Of a stretch of 64,000 bases of DNA, positions 9,099 to 34,172 are shown piece after piece (position 1 is the first letter of the stretch; every line of letters begins with the position of its first letter). The stretch comes from Alphaproteobacteria bacterium (lineage in GTDB: Bacteria > Pseudomonadota > Alphaproteobacteria > SP197), in NCBI GenBank assembly GCA_964291265.2, contig OZ219747.1:3104001-3168000 (forward strand), written 5' to 3'. A program made the translations under genes and the position numbers. Under the pieces are notes generated by a model. It saw only the letters and a list, made by a program, of their open reading frames with translations. It ran no database searches and was not told the origin of the DNA.

Positions 9099-9686
9099 AT
9101 GCCACGGCGCCATCACCATCCCCCCTCCGCCATGGCCCTGCGCGTCGCCGCTCTCGAGCAGCTGCTGACGGACAAGGGTTACTGTGATCCCGACACGATC
9201 GATCGACTCGTGGAGCTCTACGAGACCAGGGTCGGGCCGCACCATGGCGCCAGGGTGGTGGCGCATGCGTGGAGTGACGCCGCCTTCCACGAACGCCTCC
9301 TCGCGAACGCCTCGCACGCCATGGCGGGGCTCGGCATATCGGGCATGCAGGGCGAGAACATGGTGGTCGTGGAAAACACGTCCCATGTCCACAACGTGGT
9401 CGTCTGTACCCTGTGTTCGTGCTATCCGTGGCCCGTCCTCGGCCTGCCGCCGCGCTGGTACAAGAGCGAGCCCTACCGGGCGCGCGTCGTGCGTGAGCCA
9501 CGGGCCGTGCTGACCGAGATGGGGTGTGACGTGGCGGACGACGTGGAGGTCCGCGTCTGGGACTCGAGTGCGGACCTGCGCTACATGGTCCTGCCGCAGC
9601 GTCCTCCAGGCAGCGACGATCTCACCCGCGAGGAGCTTGCCGGTCTCGTGACGCGCGATGGCATGATCGGCGTGGCCAGAGTATGA
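9099..9686 (+). CDS. nthA: Nitrile hydratase alpha subunit, Co-type
   Basis: [10 protein letters not shown] metal-binding motif (Thr/Tyr pattern of cobalt enzymes), [10 protein letters not shown]. Confidence 0.95.
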
Positions 9687-9696
9687 CGAGAGCGCC

Positions 9697-10380
9697 ATGG
9701 ACGGCATTCACGACATGGGCGGCATGATGGGTTTCGGCGTCGTCGCGCATCAGACGGACGAGCCACTGTTCCATGACGACTGGGAGAGGGTGGCCTTCGG
9801 ACTTCTCCTTCAGGCATCGGGGAGGGTCGGCTTCTCGGATGATCACCTGCGCGCCCACATCGAGCGCATACCGCCTCTGGCCTACCTCCAGGCAAGCTAC
9901 TACGAGCGCTGGATCCGCGCGCTGGAGTCCTTTCTGGAGGAACGCGGACTCCTGTCATCGGCCGCCGTCGAGGCCTGCATGGCCGGAATGGCCGGACCGA
10001 CACGCCCCGCCGGCGGCAGGGGCGCCACTCTCGACGACATCGAGGAGGCCGTGGCAGGAGGGGCATCGACGCGGCGCGATGGCGCCGGAACGCCGGCGCG
10101 ATTCCGTTCCGGTGACCGGGTGCGGGTCCTCAACGAGCACCCGTGCCATCATACCCGTGCTCCGCGCTACACGAGGGGACGCATCGGCGAGGTCGTCCGT
10201 GATCATGGTGTCTTCGTGTATCCCGACACCCATGCCCGTGACCTCGGCGAGTGTCCGGAACACTGTTACACGGTGACGTTCGGGGCTCACGAACTGTGGG
10301 GTGCGCACACACCCCTGTCGGATGTCGTCAACGTCGACCTCTACGAGTCCTATCTCGAGGCGGTCGACCCACCCGCCTGA
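9697..10380 (+). CDS. nthB: Nitrile hydratase beta subunit
   Basis: MDGIHDMGGM N-terminus, SYYERW, HTRAPRYTRG, VDLYESYLE. Confidence 0.95.
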   Translation: MDGIHDMGGMMGFGVVAHQTDEPLFHDDWERVAFGLLLQASGRVGFSDDHLRAHIERIPPLAYLQASYYERWIRALESFLEERGLLSSAAVEACMAGMAGPTRPAGGRGATLDDIEEAVAGGASTRRDGAGTPARFRSGDRVRVLNEHPCHHTRAPRYTRGRIGEVVRDHGVFVYPDTHARDLGECPEHCYTVTFGAHELWGAHTPLSDVVNVDLYESYLEAVDPPA

Positions 10381-10803: not shown

Positions 10804-13382
10804 ATGACGCGAGCGCCTCACGCGCGCGAACCCCAGAATTTCGTACCCCCCCCCCCTCAAGAGTCCGGGCGCGGGGCTGAGCCGGTGGGCGCCCTCGGGA
10901 GAACCGTCCGCCGCCTGAGCGCGGAACTCGCTGCCCTCTTCCTCATCACGCTGGCCGCCGCCCTCGCGCCCCAGGACGCACAGGCGCAGGAGAAGCCGGC
11001 GCTCACGGCAACCGCGGGTGTCGGCAGTGTCACACTCACCTGGACTCGTACCGGCAACACTGGATTTGGATATTGGGTCTACCGACAGGGGGTCACCGGA
11101 GGAGGTTACGGCGACTGGATCGATATACCGGGCGGCGCCACCATCAGAGCCCACACGGTCACAGGGTTGACCGCCGGCACCTCCTATACCTTCCAGGTGG
11201 CAAGGGCAGAAGGTACCGGTCTCAACTTTTCCGTCTTCGCTAGTGGGGGAGGGTACTCGAACGGGGCGTCAGCTACGCCGACGGCGGCCACGACCACGAC
11301 GCCCGCCGCCCCGACGAACCTGACGGCGACGGGGGCCGGCACCACACAGGTGTTGCTGACGTGGACCAAGCCGGCCGGCACGATCACCGGCTACAAGCTG
11401 CGCTACGCCAAGACACCGGCAAAGGGCAGCGCCACCTGGGCCGCCATGGCGGGTTCGGGCGCGAACACCGTGAGGCATATGGTAACGGGGCTGGAAGACG
11501 ACGCCGAATACAGTTTCATGATCCGCGCCGTGAACGCCTCCGGCGACGGCGCCGCCACGGACTGGGTGACGGCGACGCCTGCGGACAGCTGCCCTTCCGT
11601 GCTCAGCCCGACGAACCTGAGTCTCGCGCCGCGTTCGGACGGGTTTGTCGTCACCTGGACGGCGCCGACCGATGTCTTCCGCAACGGCTGGACGTTGTCT
11701 TACGGCAAGACCGGGGAAAGTTCGACCTCTGTCACCATCTCGAATGCCGCCGCGACCAGCCGCACGCTGACCGGTCTGGACGCCAACACCGAATATGAGA
11801 TCAGTCTTACAGCGACCCATTCTACTTATAATCCTTCTGCGGTCTGTCCTCCAGGCTTCCGTGTAAAAGCCACCGGCACTACCGGCGCCACCGTCGCCAA
11901 ACCCGCGGCGCCGACGGGGTTGTCGGCGGAGGCGGGCAACGGTCAGGTGGAACTGACCTGGACCGACCCGGACGACGATTCGATCACGAGGTATCAGGTG
12001 CGCCAGAAGAAGGGCGGCGCCGCCTGGGGCAGTTGGACCGCGATTCCCGATTCGGACGCCGACACCACGACCCACACGGTGACGGGTCTGACGAACGACA
12101 GCGAGTACCGCTTCCGCATCCGGGCGCGGAACAGCGGCGGCAACGGCGCCGCGTCGGCGGTGGTGGAGGCGACGCCGTCGGCGTCGGCGGCGGTTCCCAA
12201 GCCGGTGCTGAGCGCCGAAGCGGGTTACGCCAGGGTCACCCTGAGCTGGAGCGCGCTGTCGGGTGTGACGGTAGCGAGCTGGGGCTATCAGTACAAGCCC
12301 GCGGGCGGCAGCTGGATCAGGACCCGGACGGTCACGGGCGCCAGCACGACGAGCACCACGGTGACGGGACTGACGATCGGCACGGAATACACGTTCCGGC
12401 TGTTTGCGGCAGTCAGTCCCGGGGTGCAGTCGGTGTGGTCGGACCAGGTGAAGGCGACGCCGACGAATACGGTTCCCAAGCCGGTTCTGACGGCGGCGGG
12501 GGGCGATGCCTCGGTCACCCTGAGCTGGAACGCCTTGACGGGCATTCCGATCACGAGCTGGGGCTATCAGTACAAGAGCACGGCCGGCTGGAACACGACC
12601 ACGACGCTCACGGGCGCAAGCAGGACGAGCGTCCGGGTGACGGGGCTGACGAAGGGCACGGACTACACGTTCCGCCTGTTCGCGGCGGTCAGTCCCGGTG
12701 TGCAGTCGGTGTGGTCGGATCAGGTGACGGCGAAGACCGATCCGGCGGCCCCGGTGCTGACGGCGGCGACTTCGACGACGAACGGGCGGATCGACCTGAC
12801 CTGGACCCATGCCGGCGGCTCGAACGAGTTGTCGGATGCGGACGACTATGTGAAAGACGCGGCCAAGTTCCATTGGTGGAGAGCGCAGACCCGGCTGAAG
12901 GGTGAGACCGTCTGGACGGATAGCGGTCTCAACCAGGCGAGTGCCAGACAGCAACCGGGTTCTCGCAACAATCGGCTTCTGCTGAACTATCCCGACGGGG
13001 CATCGGTCGAGGTCCGGGTTCGGGCAACGGGCTATCGCATGGCGGGTGTGGCCGGGGGAACGGGGAACCTTCAGGGTCCCTGGTCGAACGTCCGTACGGT
13101 GACCTTCAAGGACGACGACACGGCGGCTCTCACGCTGACCGGGACGCCGGTGACGGTGGCGCCCGGTTCCACGGCGACCTACACGGTGGCCTTGACGAAG
13201 GCCTATGCGGGGACGCTGCGGGTGACGAGCGACGACACGGCGGCGGCGCGGGTCAGTCCGGCGAGCCTGACCTTTACCACCAGCAACTACAGCACGGCGC
13301 GGACGGTGACGGTGACCGGGGTGGCGAACGGCACGGCGGTGATCAACCACGCCTTCCGGCTGACGGGAGCTTCTGCGGATGC
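10804..13382 (+). CDS. Exon 1 of a large fibronectin type III repeat autotransporter/adhesin, join(10804..13382,15159..17931), ~1783 aa after splicing
   Basis: GGAGG RBS before the ATG at 10804; hydrophobic signal segment ending AQA; several Fn3 modules (LTW...Y...VTGL...Y.F.VRA). The frame continues into exon 2 once the introns are removed. Confidence 0.85.
10846..10856 (+). repeat. Poly-C(11) homopolymer in the 5' coding region of the adhesin
   Basis: gtaCCCCCCCCCCCtcaa, read directly from the sequence. Confidence 0.9.
12193..12732 (+). repeat. Tandem duplication of an Fn3 module (~12193-12459 and ~12472-12732)
   Basis: Both copies read VPKPVL...VTLSW.AL.G....SWGYQYK...VTGLT.GT.YTFRLFAAVSPGVQSVWSDQV, with long identical DNA stretches. 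Confidence 0.9.
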
Positions 13383-15158
13383 GTGCAGCGAGTCTAGCTG
13401 CTGTACTTGCGGGTGAAAGTCCCGCCGGCGCAATTGTCAGTTTGGCGCCGTAGCATATCCCACTGGTTTAGGGGCGACCTTGGACCAGCGAGCTGGGACG
13501 TAGAAAGCCGTTGTGGGCTGGCTGGGACACAGTGCCCAGCCGGTTCGGTCAGCCAGGGCGGCGAGCAAACCGGAGGGCCGTAGCGAAAGCGAACGATTGG
13601 ATGAAGCCACGAAATGATGCTCCCACACGAAGCTGATTTGTGGGGTGGTCGGGAATGCCAAGGGCGTGGATCCGGCCCGATGGCCAGAGTCGATGCGGAA
13701 GAACTGATGAGCACGCATCGGGTTCCCCGGGGTACAGACGGCGGCAATCCGGGACAGTACAGCAGTGAAAGGCCGGAAGGTGAGGAGGACAGACAGGATG
13801 AAGTGACCCTTGAATGTCAAGGACCGCGTCTATAACCAGGATTGGGAAAGGACGCGGAGTCCTCCTGACTGGCGGATGAGGTCGAGTAAGCGTTGACGGG
13901 CGGGACAACACAACCCGTCCCGAGCGAGGACCTCAGGGCTCAGGTGGCCTATGCGGCAGGTCAAGTCGGTACTCAGAGACCGGCACCGACCGACAGACTG
14001 CAAGGTCGAAGGACGGAGCAAACGCTCGGAGATGCCGTGGGTATGGTTGGGTCAGCCTTGACCATGGCGTGTGCGGCGGAAGGCTCCGCACCGAACTCCA
14101 AGTGGGTGCCTGATGCTTGAAGCCGTACCCGGGAAAACCGGACGTACGGAATTTTAGGGGGGCGTGCAGCGAGTCTAGCTGCTGTACTTGCGGGTGAAAG
14201 TCCCGCCGGCGCAATTCCCAGTTTGGCGCCGTAGCATATCCCACTGGTACAGGGGTGACCCTGGGCCAGCGAGCTGGGATGTAGAAGCCGCTGTGGGCTG
14301 GCTGGAACGCAGTGTCCAGTTGGTCTGGTCAGCCAGGGCGGCGAGCGAACCGGAGGGCCGTAGCGAAAGCGAACGATTGTACGAAGCCTCGAAAATGAAA
14401 TTTCCCACATGAAGCTGACTTGTGGGGTGTTGGGAACGCCAAGGGCCTGCCCCCAGCTTGGTGGCCAGAGTCGATGCGGAAGAACTGGGGAGCACGCATC
14501 GGGTTCCCCGTGGTAGAGACGACGGCAATCCGGGACAGTACAGCAGTGAAAGGCCGGAAGGTGAGGAGGACAGACAGGATGAAGTGACCCTTGAATGTCA
14601 AGGACCGCGTCTATAACCAGGACTGGGAAAGGACGCGGAGTCCTCCTGACTGGCGGATGAGGTCGAGTAAGCGTTGACGGGCGGGACAACACAACCCGTC
14701 CTGAGCGAGGACCTCAGGGCTCAGGTGGCTTATGCGGCAGGTCAAGTCGGTACTCAGAGACCGGCACCGACCGACAGACTGCAAGGTCGAAGGACGGAGC
14801 AAACGCTCGGAGATGCCGTGGGTATGGTCGGGTCAGCCTTGACCATGGCGTGTTCGGCGGAAGGCTCCGCACCGAACTCCAAGTGGGTGCCTGATGCTTG
14901 AAGCCGTACCCGGGAAAACCGGACGTACGGAATTTTAGGGAGGCTGCTGGAAACGTGGTCTATGGTAGTTCTGCGACCCCGCCCGCAATCGAAAGAGCGG
15001 TGCCGGACAAAGCCTCTGCCTACGGATGCGCGCGCCAGCGGCCTACCCGACTGCTGGAAACGTGGTCTATGGGAGAACTGCGACCCCGCCCGCAATCGAA
15101 AGAGCGGTGACGGACAAAGCCTCTGCCTACGGATGCGCGCGCCAGTGGCCTACCCGAC
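13383..15158 (+). mobile_element. Outer ORF-less group II intron (13383-14163 + 15052-15158, 888 nt), interrupted by a nested copy
   Basis: 5' end GTGCAG (variant of GUGYG). Domain V-like GAAGCCGTACCCGGGAAAACCGGACGTACGGAATTT at 14119-14154, with AGC triad and AC bulge. Domain VI has a bulged A and ends CCTACCCGAC. Excision joins GC|G ATT CCC in frame. No RT ORF. Confidence 0.9.
14164..15051 (+). mobile_element. Inner ORF-less group II intron (888 nt) inserted in domain VI of the outer intron
   Basis: Same GTGCAG start, domain V at 14900-14935, intact domain VI GGGAGGCTGCTGG...CCAGCGGCCT-A-CCCGAC. Its removal rebuilds the outer domain VI (GGGGGGC|TGCTGG). Confidence 0.9.
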
Positions 15159-17931
15159 GATTCCCGACGCGGGCACGGTGGACGTGACGGTGGCCGATAC
15201 GCCGGGGGTGACGGTGTCGACGGCGGCGCTGACGGTGGCGGAAGGCGGCAGCAGGACGTACACGATGCGGCTGAACACGCCGCCGTCATCGGATGTGACG
15301 ATCACGGTGGCGGGCGCGTCGGGGGACGTGACGGTGACGGGCGCGTCGCTGACCTTCACCCGGACCAACTGGAACCAGCCGCAGACGGTGACGGTGAACG
15401 CAGGCACGGACACGGACACGGCGGTGGACCCCGCCGTGACGCTGACCCACAGCGCCTCTGGCGGCGGCTACGGCTCGGTGACCATCGCCTCTGTGGTGGT
15501 GAGCGTGGCGGAGAAGGATGTGGCGCCCGGGAAACCGACAGGCCTTGCCGGCGCGGCGGGCAACGGTTCGGTGACGCTGAGCTGGACCGCCCCGGACAAT
15601 CCGACCATCACCAAGTGGCAGGTGCGGCGGAAGGCCGGCAGCGACGACTGGGGCGCGTGGGAGGACATTCCCGGCTCCGCTGCGGGCACCACCAGCTACG
15701 AGGTGAGCGGTCTGACGAACGGCACTGCCTACCAGTTCGAGGTGCGCGCGGTGAACGGGGCCGGCAACGGCGCCGGTCCGGATGCGCCGGTGACGGCGAC
15801 GCCGGCGGCGCCGGTGGCGCCCGGCGGAGGCGGCGGTGGCGGTGGCGGTGGCGGAGGCGGCACGACGCCCACCGCAGACGCAAGCGTGACGGTGACACCG
15901 ACCGCGCTGACGGTGGCGGAGGGGAGCAGTGCCGTCTACACGGTGGTGCTGGACACGGAACCCTCGGGCGAGGTCACGGTGACGGTGGGCGGCGCTTCGG
16001 GCGAGGTGACGGTGGAACCGGCGAGCCTGACCTTCACCACGGCCAACTGGGACACGGCGCAACGGGTGACGGTGCGCGCGGCCCGTGACGAGGACACGAC
16101 CGACGACACGGCGACGCTGACCCATGGTGCGAGCGGCGGGGGCTACGCTTCGGTGACCATCGATTCGGTGGCGGTGACGGTGACGGACACAACGCTCCTG
16201 CCGGTGCTGACCCTGGCGCAGGATCCGGCGGCGGTGACCGAGGGCGAGGCCATCCGCCTCGTGGTGAGCGCCGACCGGGCGCTGACGGGCAGCCTGAGGG
16301 TGAGCCTGACCCTGGCGTCCCGGGACGGCGGCGGCTTCGATGCCGGGGACGTTCCAGGCGGCCTGGGTCCGCGTTCGTTCGATGCGGTGTTCGGCGCCGC
16401 GGGGCGGCGAACGGGCGTGGTGACGATCCCGACGGCGGCCGATGCGGATGCGGAAGGCGCGGAAGCCTACCGCATCACGCTGAACGATGCGGCGGACTAC
16501 GTGGTGGGGAACGACGCCACGGCGCTTGGCGTTCTGCGCGACCGGGCGGCGGGGGCCATGGCAAGGTCGAACCGGGTGAATGCGGCGGTGCTGCCGCACG
16601 TGGCGGCGGCGGCGATGTCGCAGACCCTGGGGGCGGTGACGGGTCGCATCGAGGCGGTGGCCTCCGGCGAGGGGGGCGGCACGGTGCAGTTCGGCGCCCT
16701 GCCGTCACCGGTGGAGGACGCGTGGGCGTCGCCGCACCCGGAGGAGCCCGGCCCGAGCATGGCGGAGGTGCTGGACGGCGCCTCCTTCACCCTGGCGGCG
16801 GGCGCCGAGGGCGAGGCCTCCGCGCCGCCGCTGGCCGTGTGGGGCCGGGGCGAGTGGCTGTCGCTGTCGGGTTCGCAAGGCGGCGTGTCGTGGGACGGCG
16901 GCCTGTGGTCGGCGCAGCTGGGGGCGGACGTGCGCCTGCGCCCCGACCTTCTGGCCGGGGCGGCGCTCTCCCATGTGCGGGGCGAGCTGGACACGCAGAC
17001 GGACCAGGTGAAGGGCGTCCACGAGACCACGATCACGTCGGTGCATCCCTATGCGGCGTGGTTGCTGGCGGACGGCTCGACCCTGTGGGCGAGCCTCGGC
17101 TACGGGACCGGCGAGGTGCGGATTGCCGAGGAGGGGGCGCCGGTGATGAGCACGGACCTGGCGCAGTGGAGCGCGGCGGCGGGCGCCCGCAGCGTCCTCA
17201 TCGAGCATGCGGACCTCATCGAGGGCGGCATGACGCGCCTTGCGGTCAAGGGCGAGGGCGCGCTGGCGCGCCTGCGCACGGGGTCCGATGACGGCCTGGC
17301 GGGGCTGACGGCGAGGACGACCCGCCTGCGGCTGCTGCTGGAGGGGTCGCACGAGCACGCGCTGGCAAGCGGTGCGACGCTGACCCCGGCCCTGGAGGCG
17401 GGGGTGCGCCATGACGCGGGCGACGCCGCCGAGGGGGCGGGCCTCGAGGCCGGGGCGAGCGTGACATGGCGGGACCCGGCGGAGGGTCTGACGGCGGAGC
17501 TGCGCACGCGGCTCCTGGCGGCCCACGAGGCGGACCGTGACGAGTGGGGTGTGAGCGCCCTGGTGCGCCTCGACCCCGGGGCCGACGGGCTTGGAACCTT
17601 CCTTGCCTTCGGTCCCGCGCACGGGCGCACCGAGAGTGATCTGGGAGAACTGTTCGACCACGGCCTGCCCGCGGCGGCATCGGGTACGACATCGGCAGAG
17701 GGCCGCCTGGAGGCCGAGGTGGGCCACGGCTTCGGCCTTGCCGGTCCGGGGCCTCTCGCGGTGCTCACCCCCTGGGCGGGCTTGAGCCTGGCGGAGACCG
17801 GCGGGCGCACCCTGCGGCTCGGCACCCGCTACCGCCTCGGCGCGGGGCTCTCCCTCGGCCTCGAGGGCGCGCACCGGCCGGGGCCGGTCAGCGAAGACAG
17901 CCTCATGCTGCGCGGCGCCCTCAACTGGTAG
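15159..17931 (+). CDS. Exon 2 of the Fn3 autotransporter: Thr/Val-rich Ig-like repeats, Fn3, Gly13 linker, Calx-beta-like domain, C-terminal autotransporter beta-barrel
   Basis: ASLTFT..NW...QTVTV repeats, PGKPTGL Fn3 module, IPTAADADAEGAEAYRITL, amphipathic beta-strands ending LMLRGALNW (terminal aromatic residue). Confidence 0.88.
15823..15861 (+). repeat. GGN microsatellite encoding a 13-Gly linker
   Basis: ggcggaggcggcggtggcggtggcggtggcggaggcggc. Confidence 0.9.
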
Positions 17932-23641: not shown

Positions 23642-23824
23642 AAGACTATTCTTTTGTCCAGGTTCGCCCGACGAGGGGGCGGCGTAGGCAGATCTGGAGG
23701 TTCATTCGGGACCGGATTTCGTTGTCGATATGCCGGTTCCGACCTCGAGAAGGAACACCACTCACTTCAAGAACGGCCACTGACGCGGTTGTCCACCGCC
23801 GATCGCGACAACAGAATGGTCCTG
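23641..23824 (+). repeat. Long imperfect direct repeat, copy 1 (partner at 25627-25808)
   Basis: Colinear similarity over ~180 bp, with an identical 29-bp core TCGATATGCCGGTTCCGACCTCGAGAAGG at 23725-23753 and 25710-25738. Confidence 0.9.
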
Positions 23825-25626: not shown

Positions 25627-25808
25627 CAAGGGCTATTTTTGTCCGGTTTCGTCCGACGAGGAGGCGTTGCAGGCAGATCGGGAGGTCCATTCGGGAGCGG
25701 ATTTCGTTATCGATATGCCGGTTCCGACCTCGAGAAGGTGCCACCAACTTCAAGAACGGCCACTCTGACGCAGTTGTCCACCGCCGATTGCGACAAAGAA
25801 TGGTCCTG
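25627..25808 (+). repeat. Long imperfect direct repeat, copy 2
   Basis: See copy 1; ends at GAATGGTCCTG, running directly into the right 12-bp repeat. Confidence 0.9.
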
Positions 25809-32642: not shown

Positions 32643-34172
32643 TCACGCGTCTCCGGTTCCTGGAAGTCTGATGGGAAAGCGCGAGCGGATGGCCTGCTCC
32701 GCCGTTGTCTCGAGGTGTGTCGGCGCCGGGGCGTCAGCGATGCGCGTCACTCTGGCTCTCGCCCTCTCCCAGAGCGATACAGTACCGGACTCGACCCACT
32801 CTTGGACGCTGCGCCTGTCGCCCAGGCAGGGGTAGACGTACTCGCTTTTCATGAGCTCCAACGTCTGTGGCTCGCCGAGGTAATGGCCGTCGCCGCGAAC
32901 AACACGGTCCATGGCGTCGAGATCGATGGCGTCCGTCGTGACATCGACACCGCGAACCGAGCGCAGGATGGCGCCCAGCATCTCGTCATCGATGACAAGG
33001 GCTTCCGGGGAAGCCACGGTGATGGAACCCAGCATGCCGACGGAAAGATTGATCATGTCCGCTCCCGCGTGAGCCGCCAGGGCAATGGTATAGGCCTTCT
33101 CGTATCCTGCCTGGATGTCCGCTTCCTTGGAGTCGGTCATGCCTGCGGCAACGGTGGAAGGCAGTTGAAGGTGACGCAGAAGCTGTGCCGCGGCGGCATT
33201 CGCAATGGCCGACTCGCCGCCGCCGCCACTCATGGCGCCCGTTCTGAGATCGGATATGAATGGCATGAATGCATGGATGGTGGGATGACCGGGCTTGAGG
33301 AGGTCAACCACCATGAGCCCGGCGAGAGTCTCCGCGAGACCCTGGGCAAGGGCGCCGGCGAGCGTGACGGGACTGGTGGCGCCGGCCTGACCCGCCGAAC
33401 ACGTCTGCAGCGGCATGCCCTTGTCCATGGCGGTACGCATGATGTCGACGCCATCGGCTGCATAGCGAAGAGGCGAGACGGCATGCACCACAACCGCCAT
33501 GCAGAAGGGTCGCCGGCGAAAGCTGTCATCGGCCCCGAGTGCGCAGTCGAACATGGCCACGACCGGTGCGACGTGTCCGGCATGGGCGAACGACGTGCCG
33601 ATGGGCTTGCTCGTTCCGGCAAGGCAGGCGTAGGCGGTGTTGACGTCGAGTTCGAAGGTGTCGGCCATGTCCCGTGCCACCAGGGGGCGGATGCCGTAAT
33701 GCACGTTGGGGCACGCATCGACCACACGCATGATGGCATGAAGGTCACGAAGTGTGGAGGGGCGGTAGCGTCCGGTTGCGCTGTCGAGCACATCGATGGC
33801 GGCGCCACCGGTGCCGGTGTGAACGAGGCCGTTGCCGGCATCGATACCCCTGTCCTCGACAAAGCCCGGTACGGTGACGCTCTTCGCTGCCCGCTCCAGT
33901 GCCTTTTCGACCCGGATTCGCGGGAAGAGAACGCGGCCGTCCCCGCGCCGCCTGGCGCCATCCCCGGTTGCCATCCGGACGAACCAGTCGGGAGCCGAGG
34001 CCATGCCGATGTGCTCGAGAATGGAAAAGGCGCTGTCGATGATGGTGTCGCGGGCGGCGTCATCGAGGGGCGAGAAGCGGCCGCCCCATTCCCTGCGGGG
34101 AGCGATTGCCGGGAGATTGGTCGATCTTCGGGATTTCGACCGCGCCACCCGCTGGTTGACAGTCGGGCTCAT
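32643..34172 (-). CDS. Trimethylamine methyltransferase (MttB) family protein, non-pyrrolysine type
   Basis: GTGGAA, VSPLRY, GQAGATSPVTLAGAL, SDLRTGAMSGG, GMTDSK..D.QAGYEK; no in-frame amber codon; start approximate. Confidence 0.88.
   Translation of the reverse strand: MSPTVNQRVARSKSRRSTNLPAIAPRREWGGRFSPLDDAARDTIIDSAFSILEHIGMASAPDWFVRMATGDGARRRGDGRVLFPRIRVEKALERAAKSVTVPGFVEDRGIDAGNGLVHTGTGGAAIDVLDSATGRYRPSTLRDLHAIMRVVDACPNVHYGIRPLVARDMADTFELDVNTAYACLAGTSKPIGTSFAHAGHVAPVVAMFDCALGADDSFRRRPFCMAVVVHAVSPLRYAADGVDIMRTAMDKGMPLQTCSAGQAGATSPVTLAGALAQGLAETLAGLMVVDLLKPGHPTIHAFMPFISDLRTGAMSGGGGESAIANAAAAQLLRHLQLPSTVAAGMTDSKEADIQAGYEKAYTIALAAHAGADMINLSVGMLGSITVASPEALVIDDEMLGAILRSVRGVDVTTDAIDLDAMDRVVRGDGHYLGEPQTLELMKSEYVYPCLGDRRSVQEWVESGTVSLWERARARVTRIADAPAPTHLETTAEQAIRSRFPIRLPGTGDA

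What the first reader, a model, noticed from the sequence alone, without database searches (positions are those of the whole stretch)
13383..15158. Twintron of two ORF-less group II introns, the inner one inserted in domain VI of its sibling, splitting a giant adhesin gene
Seen: the insertion has an A-A'-B'-B layout. The outer 5' part (13383-14163, 781 nt) is followed by a complete inner copy (14164-15051, 888 nt) and then the outer 3' part (15052-15158, 107 nt); 781+107=888. Both copies start GTGCAG, carry a domain V-like hairpin and end CCTACCCGAC. Removing all 1,776 nt joins ...GAT GC|G ATT CCC (GASADA-IPDAGTVDV) into a ~1,783-aa ORF running from signal peptide to beta-barrel; unspliced RNA stops at TGA 13414-13416. 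Established: group II twintrons are known (Euglena plastids, Methanosarcina, cyanobacteria), and prokaryotic cases I know mostly nest in the dispensable ORF domain. Inference: nesting in the branch-point helix suggests ordered inner-then-outer splicing is needed to make the surface protein.
Basis: partly seen in the sequence, partly recalled or inferred. Interest (0 to 1): 0.93.

Follow-up and report, generated by a model that had tools for sequence, protein, structure and literature searches.

The report
Intron targeting its sibling's branch helix
A gene-less group II intron sits inside the branch-point helix of a 94%-identical sibling six times in this genome, likely because it retargeted itself to that sibling while one base change would spare its own copies; here the pair splits one of six near-identical surface-protein genes, which would need two ordered splicing steps to be made.

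Summary
The layout is real and exact: outer intron 13383-14163 + 15052-15158, inner 14164-15051, both 888 nt, ORF-less, 93.8% identical. The genome holds six such twintrons. All six inner copies are identical while the outers differ, which favours recent, independent homing of the inner intron. Its EBS1/EBS2/EBS3 pair with the sibling's DV-DVI junction, four base pairs above the branch A. Its own equivalent site carries G-to-A, which keeps DVI paired but breaks EBS1 pairing. Filled sites all lie on the lagging-strand template; both empty ones do not. No intact reverse transcriptase of this ribozyme type was found in the genome, only an unrelated family. Removing the twintron restores a 1,782-aa Fn3 autotransporter, but five intron-free paralogs exist, so splicing is not needed for the cell to make this protein family. 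Splicing is untested, and the Rfam domain V model gave 0 of 2 predicted hits. This is a new variant of a known kind, closest to Thermosynechococcus F3-in-F1 twintrons. The scan earlier noted this ORF-less lineage, and domain VI nesting by another intron type, on other DNA, but not a sibling nested in DVI.

The parts
10807..13382 (+). Exon 1 of the host gene: likely start ATG 10807 (alternative ATG 10585), signal-peptide-like stretch ending ...AQA, Fn3 repeats; ends in the outer intron's IBS2 (approx. 13368-13373) and IBS1 GGATGC (13377-13382)
   Evidence: (PF00041, six stretches); signal peptide judged by eye
13383..14163 (+). Outer ORF-less group II intron, 5' part: DI-DV and first seven bases of DVI (GGGGGGC 14157-14163). 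EBS2 13616-13621, EBS1 GGATCC 13668-13673, EBS3 C 13735, alpha 13437-13443 / alpha-prime 13630-13636, DV from about 14117
   Evidence: element positions assigned by covariation with flanks and by analogy to IIB introns
14150..14163 (+). Target of the inner intron inside the outer one: IBS2 AATTTT (DV 3' strand) and IBS1 GGGGGC (5' strand of the DVI branch helix); insertion after the 4th pair above the branch A
14164..15051 (+). Inner ORF-less group II intron, complete. EBS2 GAAATT 14397-14402, EBS1 GCCCCC 14449-14454, EBS3 G 14516, DV from about 14898, DVI 14938-15048 with G-to-A at 14941, branch A 15045; identical in all six genomic copies
15052..15158 (+). Outer intron, 3' part: rest of the long DVI, branch A 15152, 3' end ...CCCGAC
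15159..17931 (+). Exon 2 of the host gene: repeats, one Fn3 domain, C-terminal autotransporter beta-barrel ending ...LNW; 97.4-98.2% identical to five intron-free paralogs
   Evidence: (PF03797 E 4.5e-9)

Best explanation
This is a twintron in which an ORF-less group II intron sits in domain VI of a 94%-identical ORF-less sibling; the inner intron has likely homed independently into each outer copy as a parasite of its own family, likely helped by a reverse transcriptase made elsewhere, and the RNA would have to lose the inner intron first before the outer one can branch. Shown in sequence: the inner's EBS1, EBS2 and EBS3 are complementary to the sibling's DV-DVI junction, and its own equivalent site has one G-to-A change that turns a G-U pair of DVI into A-U and puts a C-A mismatch in EBS1-IBS1. 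Inferred cycle: the inner intron splices out of a transcribed twintron and reverse-splices into any outer copy on the lagging-strand template at the replication fork. An outer copy that moves after ordered splicing would land inner-free and supply a fresh target. In this window the outer copy landed at an imperfect site in one paralog of a six-copy Fn3-autotransporter family; that paralog makes full-length protein only if both steps occur, otherwise a secreted-type fragment without the barrel.
For: Six twintrons at five loci. Inner: 1 distinct sequence among 6. The five close outers have 13 segregating sites (P = 0.5^13 = 1.2e-4 if they moved as one unit), and a sixth outer of another subfamily (36-40 differences, different EBS1) holds the same inner. 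EBS1 tracks IBS1 through five different sequences in this genome and relatives (inner GCCCCC/GGGGGC, outer GGATCC/GGATCC, T2 CGTGAC/GTCACG, G002, L039/L044, L040). The inner's target pattern occurs 8 times in 4.83 Mb, all within family members: 6 filled, 2 empty. No inner copy is invaded (0 of 6) against 6 of 7 full-length outers (Fisher p 0.005, copies not independent). 7 of 7 relatives in alignment A2 have G where the inner has A, and the pair is kept (GU 7, AU 1); the pair at the insertion point covaries (CG 5, AU 2, UG 1). Duplex energies: IBS1-EBS1 -13.9, same bases in DVI -10.4, inner's own site -10.2 kcal/mol; in the predicted precursor the outer DVI does not form. Strand bias: 6 of 6 filled targets on the G-rich strand, 2 of 2 empty on the other, 8 of 8 empty outer-family targets on the other, RT introns 15 of 16 co-oriented (dnaA at 648 kb near the skew minimum at 720 kb), as described for the En-minus intron RmInt1 (PMC8914252 abstract). 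The same identical-inner/diverged-outer pattern was read as independent insertion in T. elongatus (PMC2882425 passages).
Against: No splicing or mobility was observed. No intact RT of this ribozyme type is in the genome: of 18 RVT_1 matches, 16 full and 1 partial belong to one short-DVI RF02005 family whose RNA shows no similarity to this intron (z <= 1.3), and 1 is a truncated RT of a third family, so the helper is unidentified. RF00029 does not recognise DV-DVI. The outer's IBS1 in this window has a G-G mismatch at -2 (-7.9 kcal/mol) and IBS2 is offset, so outer splicing may be poor. The empty outer S6 also carries an IS1634 20 nt past the target, so strand is not the only explanation for it. 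One relative (G002) has an EBS3 mismatch and L039/L044 are ambiguous there. The G-to-A change could be drift, and inner copies are younger targets.
Confidence: 0.78

Rival explanations
1. The twintron is real but, at this locus, effectively a knock-out: the outer intron landed at an imperfect site, splices little or not at all, and the intron-free paralogs cover the loss. Compatible with the best explanation on origin; it differs on whether this gene is expressed.
For: Five intron-free paralogs, four unbroken; IBS1 mismatch at -2; no cognate RT; other copies sit in IS elements or between genes.
Against: Both exons are free of stops and frameshifts. Private changes in this paralog are 21 synonymous to 14 non-synonymous (others pooled 13 to 7), though these may predate the insertion. 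Identical inner copies imply recent excision from some transcribed twintron.
Confidence: 0.4
2. The 1,776-nt twintron splices and moves as one unit ('zombie' twintron): the outer's seven DVI bases pair directly with its 3' strand, with the inner looped out.
For: The 7-bp branch stem can still be drawn (-10.4 kcal/mol); every intact outer carries the inner; one-piece splicing is reported for plant mitochondrial twintrons (PMC7049729 passages; PMC8393795 passages).
Against: Outers differ at 13 sites while inners differ at none; an outer of a second subfamily holds the same inner; the inner has intact, fully matched EBS1-3.
Confidence: 0.1
3. The twintron is a domesticated two-step switch that regulates or phase-varies this surface protein.
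For: It is in sense orientation and in frame in a surface-protein gene; C. tetani has an alternatively splicing intron in a surface-layer locus (PMC4424553 passages).
Against: Only 1 of 6 twintrons is in a host gene in sense. The nested junction was found in 0 of 32 other genomes of the family and not in the metagenome scan. Cross-pairing of the two DVI ends would leave 107 or 781 nt, both frameshifts.
Confidence: 0.06
4. The A-A'-B'-B layout is a misassembly or a simple duplication of one intron.
For: The two copies are 94% alike and repeats can confuse assembly.
Against: Six copies with different flanks; inner and outer differ in exactly the EBS loops that match their junctions; an inner-free outer exists (S6); a contig of another run spans the junction.
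Confidence: 0.01

Closest known systems
Thermosynechococcus elongatus twintrons: ORF-less F3 (TeI3) introns inside F1 (TeI4) introns (Mohr, Ghanem & Lambowitz 2010, PMC2882425; passages read)
   Same: ORF-less sibling family retargeted by EBS changes to a conserved site in related introns; several twintrons per genome; inner copies identical while outers diverge; read as independent insertions.
   Different: There the site is in DIV between two start codons of the outer's ORF, and cognate IEPs are present and shown to mobilise the inner. Here the site is in the DVI branch helix with IBS2 on the DV 3' strand, both partners are ORF-less, no cognate RT was found, the inner carries a structure-neutral change at its own site, and one copy splits a host gene.
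Trichodesmium erythraeum Tr.e.I7/I8 twintron (Pfreundt & Hess 2015, PMC4649490; abstract, passages and Discussion read)
   Same: Bacterial group II twintron in a protein-coding gene with the inner in a structural ribozyme domain; sequential splicing (shown there).
   Different: Inner lies in domain I; the two introns are of different subgroups (IIB2, IIB1) and both have IEP ORFs; conserved across populations; described in 2015 as the only bacterial case in a protein-coding gene.
Methanosarcina acetivorans nested introns (as summarised in Zimmerly & Semper 2015, PMC4424553 passages; the primary paper was not held)
   Same: Related introns homing into each other give a perpetual target.
   Different: Up to five-deep nested arrays with no coding exons; here nesting stops at one level, with 0 of 6 inner copies invaded.
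Euglena and plant-organelle twintrons (psbF, inner in domain V: PMC8393795 passages; self-invading cox1i1149g2: PMC7049729 passages)
   Same: Inner intron in a catalytic-core domain, or a copy of the same intron inside itself. That some Euglena inner introns lie in domain VI is recalled, not confirmed in a paper read here.
   Different: Organellar, degenerate and host-factor dependent; in the lycophyte case the inner is dead and the unit splices whole.
Class E/F (IIE/IIF) bacterial ribozymes (Nagy et al. 2013, PMC3753933 passages)
   Same: alpha-prime in a terminal stem-loop, 5-nt DV loop, and the long structured D6 said to be typical of IIF.
   Different: Those carry IEP ORFs; all 7 full-length relatives found outside this genome are ORF-less. 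Class is defined by the IEP and cannot be assigned.

Membership tests
Group II intron (IIB-type) | 5' GUGYG-like and 3' AY boundaries | tested here: met
   GTGCAG...CCCGAC in both copies; fifth base is A rather than G
Group II intron (IIB-type) | Domain I covariance-model match | tested here: met
   RF02003 67.9 and 68.0 bits, cut-off 49
Group II intron (IIB-type) | Domain V with AGC triad recognised by RF00029 | tested here: inconclusive
   A conserved 34-36-nt hairpin with AGC is present and folds, but RF00029 gave 0 of 2 hits at E<=1; the strand opposite the triad reads CGGAAU and DVI is far longer than the 77-position model
Group II intron (IIB-type) | Domain VI with bulged A seven bases from the 3' end | tested here: met
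   A15045 and A15152 bulged in single and consensus folds, with compensatory change in the stem
Group II intron (IIB-type) | EBS1/EBS2/EBS3 complementary to flanking exons | tested here: met
   EBS1 covaries with IBS1 over five sequences; the window's outer has 5 of 6 pairs; EBS3 fits all G000 copies and 3 of 4 scorable relatives
Group II intron (IIB-type) | Splices (self-splicing or maturase-assisted) | not testable with these tools
   needs RNA data or an assay
Twintron (strict sense) | A complete intron nested in another intron whose removal restores it | tested here: met
   Removal restores an 888-nt intron 99.4% like the inner-free copy S6 with a normal DV-DVI fold
Twintron (strict sense) | Inner must splice before outer | tested here: inconclusive
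   Folding predicts mutually exclusive pairing of 14158-14163; secondary-structure prediction only
T. elongatus F3-in-F1 type | Identical inner copies in diverged outer copies | tested here: met
   1 distinct inner among 6; 13 segregating sites among five close outers
T. elongatus F3-in-F1 type | Insertion in DIV of an ORF-bearing outer, cognate IEP in the genome | tested here: not met
   Insertion is in DVI, outer is ORF-less (longest + strand frame 77 aa), no cognate RT
Class E/F (IIE/IIF) lineage | RNA traits: alpha-prime in terminal loop, 5-nt DV loop, long DVI | tested here: met
   DV-DVI aligns with ORF-bearing long-DVI introns of G010 and G012 (z 10.7, 8.6)
Class E/F (IIE/IIF) lineage | IEP falls in class E or F by phylogeny | not testable with these tools
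   No ORF; no class-labelled reference set was available (one search found no motifs in the two supplements held)
Autotransporter (type Va) surface protein, host gene | N-terminal signal peptide, passenger repeats, C-terminal beta-barrel | tested here: met
   PF03797 36.9 bits over cut-off 26, PF00041 repeats; signal peptide by eye only
Autotransporter (type Va) surface protein, host gene | Adhesin activity | not testable with these tools
   inferred from domain content

The most novel reading that the evidence does not exclude
A long-lived lineage of ORF-less group II introns (75-83% identical across genomes and metagenomes, always without a gene, freely retargeting its EBS loops) is mobilised in trans by the reverse transcriptase of an unrelated intron class, the only intact RT in this genome. 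Within it, one sibling has become a self-immune hyperparasite of its own family's branch-point helix, so that every outer intron, and one surface-protein gene, now depends on the parasite's excision.
Probability: 0.3. Interest if true: 0.8.

Novelty: new variant of a known kind. Interest (0 to 1): 0.58.

Why it matters
It is a clean natural case of an intron making itself indispensable by landing in an essential element of its host intron, an idea stated in PMC4649490. The switch is easy to test: the same six bases serve either as the inner intron's IBS1 or as the outer's branch helix. The single structure-neutral base change offers a direct test of self versus non-self discrimination in a retroelement. 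The missing cognate RT makes cross-class mobilisation of ORF-less introns testable with one donor plasmid and one RT. The family escapes the RF00029 model, which one survey pipeline uses to find domains V-VI (PMC8919778 passages), so such introns may be under-counted. It would be a further bacterial twintron in a protein-coding gene, though here intron-free paralogs remove most of the cost.

Tried and rejected
RNA evidence: no RNA holder listed; this says nothing about expression. The join 13381-to-15158 seen in contigs of 2 of 4 runs (X1, X2) is not evidence of splicing, because intron-free paralogs give the same join as DNA; the runs are of one study and their kind is not on record. A second laying (runs X1, X2, X3, X5) showed no 14163/15052 join; contigs were too short to decide, and a loose end at 14965 in X2 is ambiguous. 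Misassembly: rejected. RF00029: no hit on this family, and in the own-genome search it scored only an ORF-less relative of the RT intron, below cut-off, with 150 of 255 candidates scored. Plasmid collection: no match. GTDB pattern scan gave one 5' fragment only (L038). Nested-junction pattern: 0 hits in metagenome contigs, 0 of 32 other family genomes. An ORF-bearing close relative was not found. DIV similarity to the resident RT intron: none. Common RT class among 5 relatives carrying the family: mixed RT families, not decisive. I first called the resident RT 'class D'; this was dropped, since no call supports a class (by recall its C-terminus looks class E). Synonymous/non-synonymous test of the host paralog: not discriminating. 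Literature: searches returned no bacterial twintron in DVI among the papers and passages I opened, but four key papers were not held (Simon 2008, Dai & Zimmerly 2003, Hafez & Hausner 2015, Drager & Hallick 1993), and supplements of the twintron papers were not read, so prior description is not excluded.

Full report
Observation. The outer intron is 13383-14163 plus 15052-15158, the inner is 14164-15051, each 888 nt, identical at 836 of 891 aligned columns. Both match Rfam RF02003 above its gathering score. The predicted RF00029 (DV-DVI) hits were not obtained, 0 of 2 even at E<=1. A DV hairpin with an AGC triad and a DVI with a bulged A fold clearly, but DVI is about 114 nt and the strand opposite the triad is non-canonical, which likely explains the miss. 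Removing the 1,776 nt restores a frame of 1,782 aa from ATG 10807 (1,856 aa from ATG 10585) with Fn3 repeats and an autotransporter barrel. Unspliced RNA stops at 13414.

It is a family, not a one-off. The 4.83-Mb, 2-contig genome holds six twintrons at five loci, two of them head to tail at one site, plus one full-length outer without the inner (S6, with an IS1634 in its DVI) and several fragments. All six inner copies are one sequence. The five close outers have 13 segregating sites; if inner and outer were inherited together, the chance that all fall in the outer is 1.2e-4. A sixth outer differs at 36-40 positions, has a different EBS1 and still holds the identical inner. This is the pattern that Mohr et al. 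read as independent recent insertion in T. elongatus (PMC2882425, passages).

Target recognition. EBS1 follows IBS1 through five different sequences across this genome and relatives. The inner's EBS1 GCCCCC, EBS2 GAAATT and EBS3 G match GGGGGC, AATTTT and T at the sibling's DV-DVI junction. That pattern occurs 8 times in the genome, always in a family member: 6 filled, 2 empty. The insertion follows the fourth base pair above the branch A, in a stem supported by a compensatory change at that very pair (CG 5, AU 2, UG 1 among 8 sequences). The inner's own site reads GGGAGGC. All 7 relatives in that alignment and all 7 outers have G there; the A keeps the DVI pair (A-U for G-U) and weakens pairing to EBS1 from -13.9 to -10.2 kcal/mol. 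No inner copy is invaded (0 of 6, against 6 of 7 outers; Fisher p 0.005, copies not independent). I read this as self-immunity (inference); drift and the younger age of inner targets are alternatives.

How it moves. GC skew places the replication switches near 0.72 and 3.29 Mb, with dnaA at 0.65 Mb. All 6 filled inner targets lie on the G-rich strand, which is the lagging-strand template; both empty ones, and all 8 empty perfect targets of the outer family, lie on the other; 15 of 16 RT-bearing introns show the same bias. This matches fork-dependent homing by endonuclease-less introns such as RmInt1 (PMC8914252, abstract) and the bias reported for ORF-less introns (PMC8919778, passages). Two of five empty adhesin-paralog sites are on the favoured strand, both close to a switch point. 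The helper is unknown. Of 18 RVT_1 matches, 16 full and 1 partial belong to a 1.9-kb short-DVI intron family (RF02005; 528-aa RT/maturase with no endonuclease family detected), and 1 is a truncated RT of a third family. The resident ribozyme has no detectable similarity to this one, whereas ORF-bearing long-DVI introns of relatives G010 and G012 do (z 10.7 and 8.6). Either the resident RT works across classes or a cognate RT was lost or only passed through.

Relatives. 8 of 60 related genomes, all of the same genus (8 of 22), hold matches; one is full length (G002, 892 nt, 81-82%). A domain V pattern found 10 metagenome loci, 6 with the whole intron (887 or 905 nt, two distinct types) and 4 cut by contig ends. 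All 7 full-length relatives are ORF-less and none has an insert in DVI. Two relatives sit in or just before RT-bearing introns (L044, L028). The nested junction was found in 0 of 32 other family genomes and not in the metagenome scan. RNA traits (alpha-prime in a terminal loop, 5-nt DV loop, long DVI) fit the IIE/IIF description in PMC3753933 (passages); class cannot be assigned without an IEP.

Splicing and the host gene. Bases 14158-14163 can pair with the inner's EBS1 or with a DVI 3' strand, not both. In the predicted precursor the inner's DVI forms (pair probabilities 0.97-0.99) and the outer's does not; after inner removal the outer DV-DVI folds normally at -65.0 kcal/mol. Different EBS3 bases (C, G) would disfavour cross-use of the two 3' ends, which would leave 107 or 781 nt and shift the frame. 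Ordered splicing is therefore likely but untested. This is the only one of the six twintrons in a long, high-GC3 frame in sense orientation; the others are antisense in a transposase gene, in an IS repeat or between genes. The outer's site here is imperfect (5 of 6 IBS1 pairs). The exons show no decay, which fits either recent insertion or continued splicing. A contig of run X4 spans the inner 5' junction, one study only.

Comparison and verdict. It works like the T. elongatus F3-in-F1 system but fails that type's site and helper features. It shares gene-splitting with the Trichodesmium twintron, whose inner lies in domain I (PMC4649490). Inner introns in DV are known from Euglena psbF (PMC8393795, passages); DVI cases in Euglena are recalled only. 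My searches showed no bacterial DVI twintron, but four key papers were not held and supplements were not read. Earlier AI notes of this scan describe the same ORF-less lineage nested in other introns, self-nesting in DIII or DIV, and an RT-bearing intron in DVI of an ORF-less one; I did not verify them. Verdict: real, a new variant of a known kind, interest 0.58.

Noticed in passing
G000:C2:1375420-1376264; fragments at C2:1339360-1340572 (L037), 2243028, 2248008, 1430693: A second twintron type: an 845-nt intron of a third family inserted in the resident RT-intron family, apparently in its domain III. Its only RT is a 204-aa fragment.
   Followed up: partly
G000:C2, 16 sites such as 376771-376843: An ORF-less derivative of the resident RT intron in about 16 copies, 14 of 16 on the G-rich strand; the genome holds well over 40 group II intron copies.
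   Followed up: partly
L003:6211-9762 (G000:C2:3769211-3772762): Two complete twintrons head to tail at one target, antisense in a DDE transposase gene; the first base of the earlier intron (G) serves as IBS3 for the second.
   Followed up: partly
L005 (C2:3659399-3661347) and L007 (C2:1767668): The same IS1634-family end sequence interrupts DVI in both inner-free copies, at different positions.
   Followed up: partly
L008:4652-4719: A 68-nt 3' fragment of the outer intron sits precisely at a T2-type target site, like a 5'-truncated insertion.
   Followed up: no
window 14962-17931: An ATG inside the inner intron's DVI opens a 989-aa frame that reads through both 3' intron ends into exon 2; no signal peptide, probably chance.
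   Followed up: no
G000:C2:746275, 2409313, 3326697, 3491215, 3928513: The host gene belongs to a six-copy family with near-identical 3' halves and mosaic 5' Fn3 regions, suggestive of recombinational variation; one paralog is broken by a 2.4-kb insertion.
   Followed up: partly
window 33041-33140 (-): Rfam PYLIS_3 (mttB) match above gathering score inside a long ORF; no check for an amber codon or pyl genes.
   Followed up: no
window 23652-23811 and 25637-25796: A 102-nt direct repeat (89%) plus a 32-nt one, 1,985 nt apart, flanking a 521-aa ORF.
   Followed up: no
L082 (G120:C544): A more distant ORF-less relative with the same 5' end and DV type but a shorter DVI.
   Followed up: no
window 9099-10380: Nitrile hydratase alpha and beta genes lie just upstream of the host gene on the same strand.
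   Followed up: no
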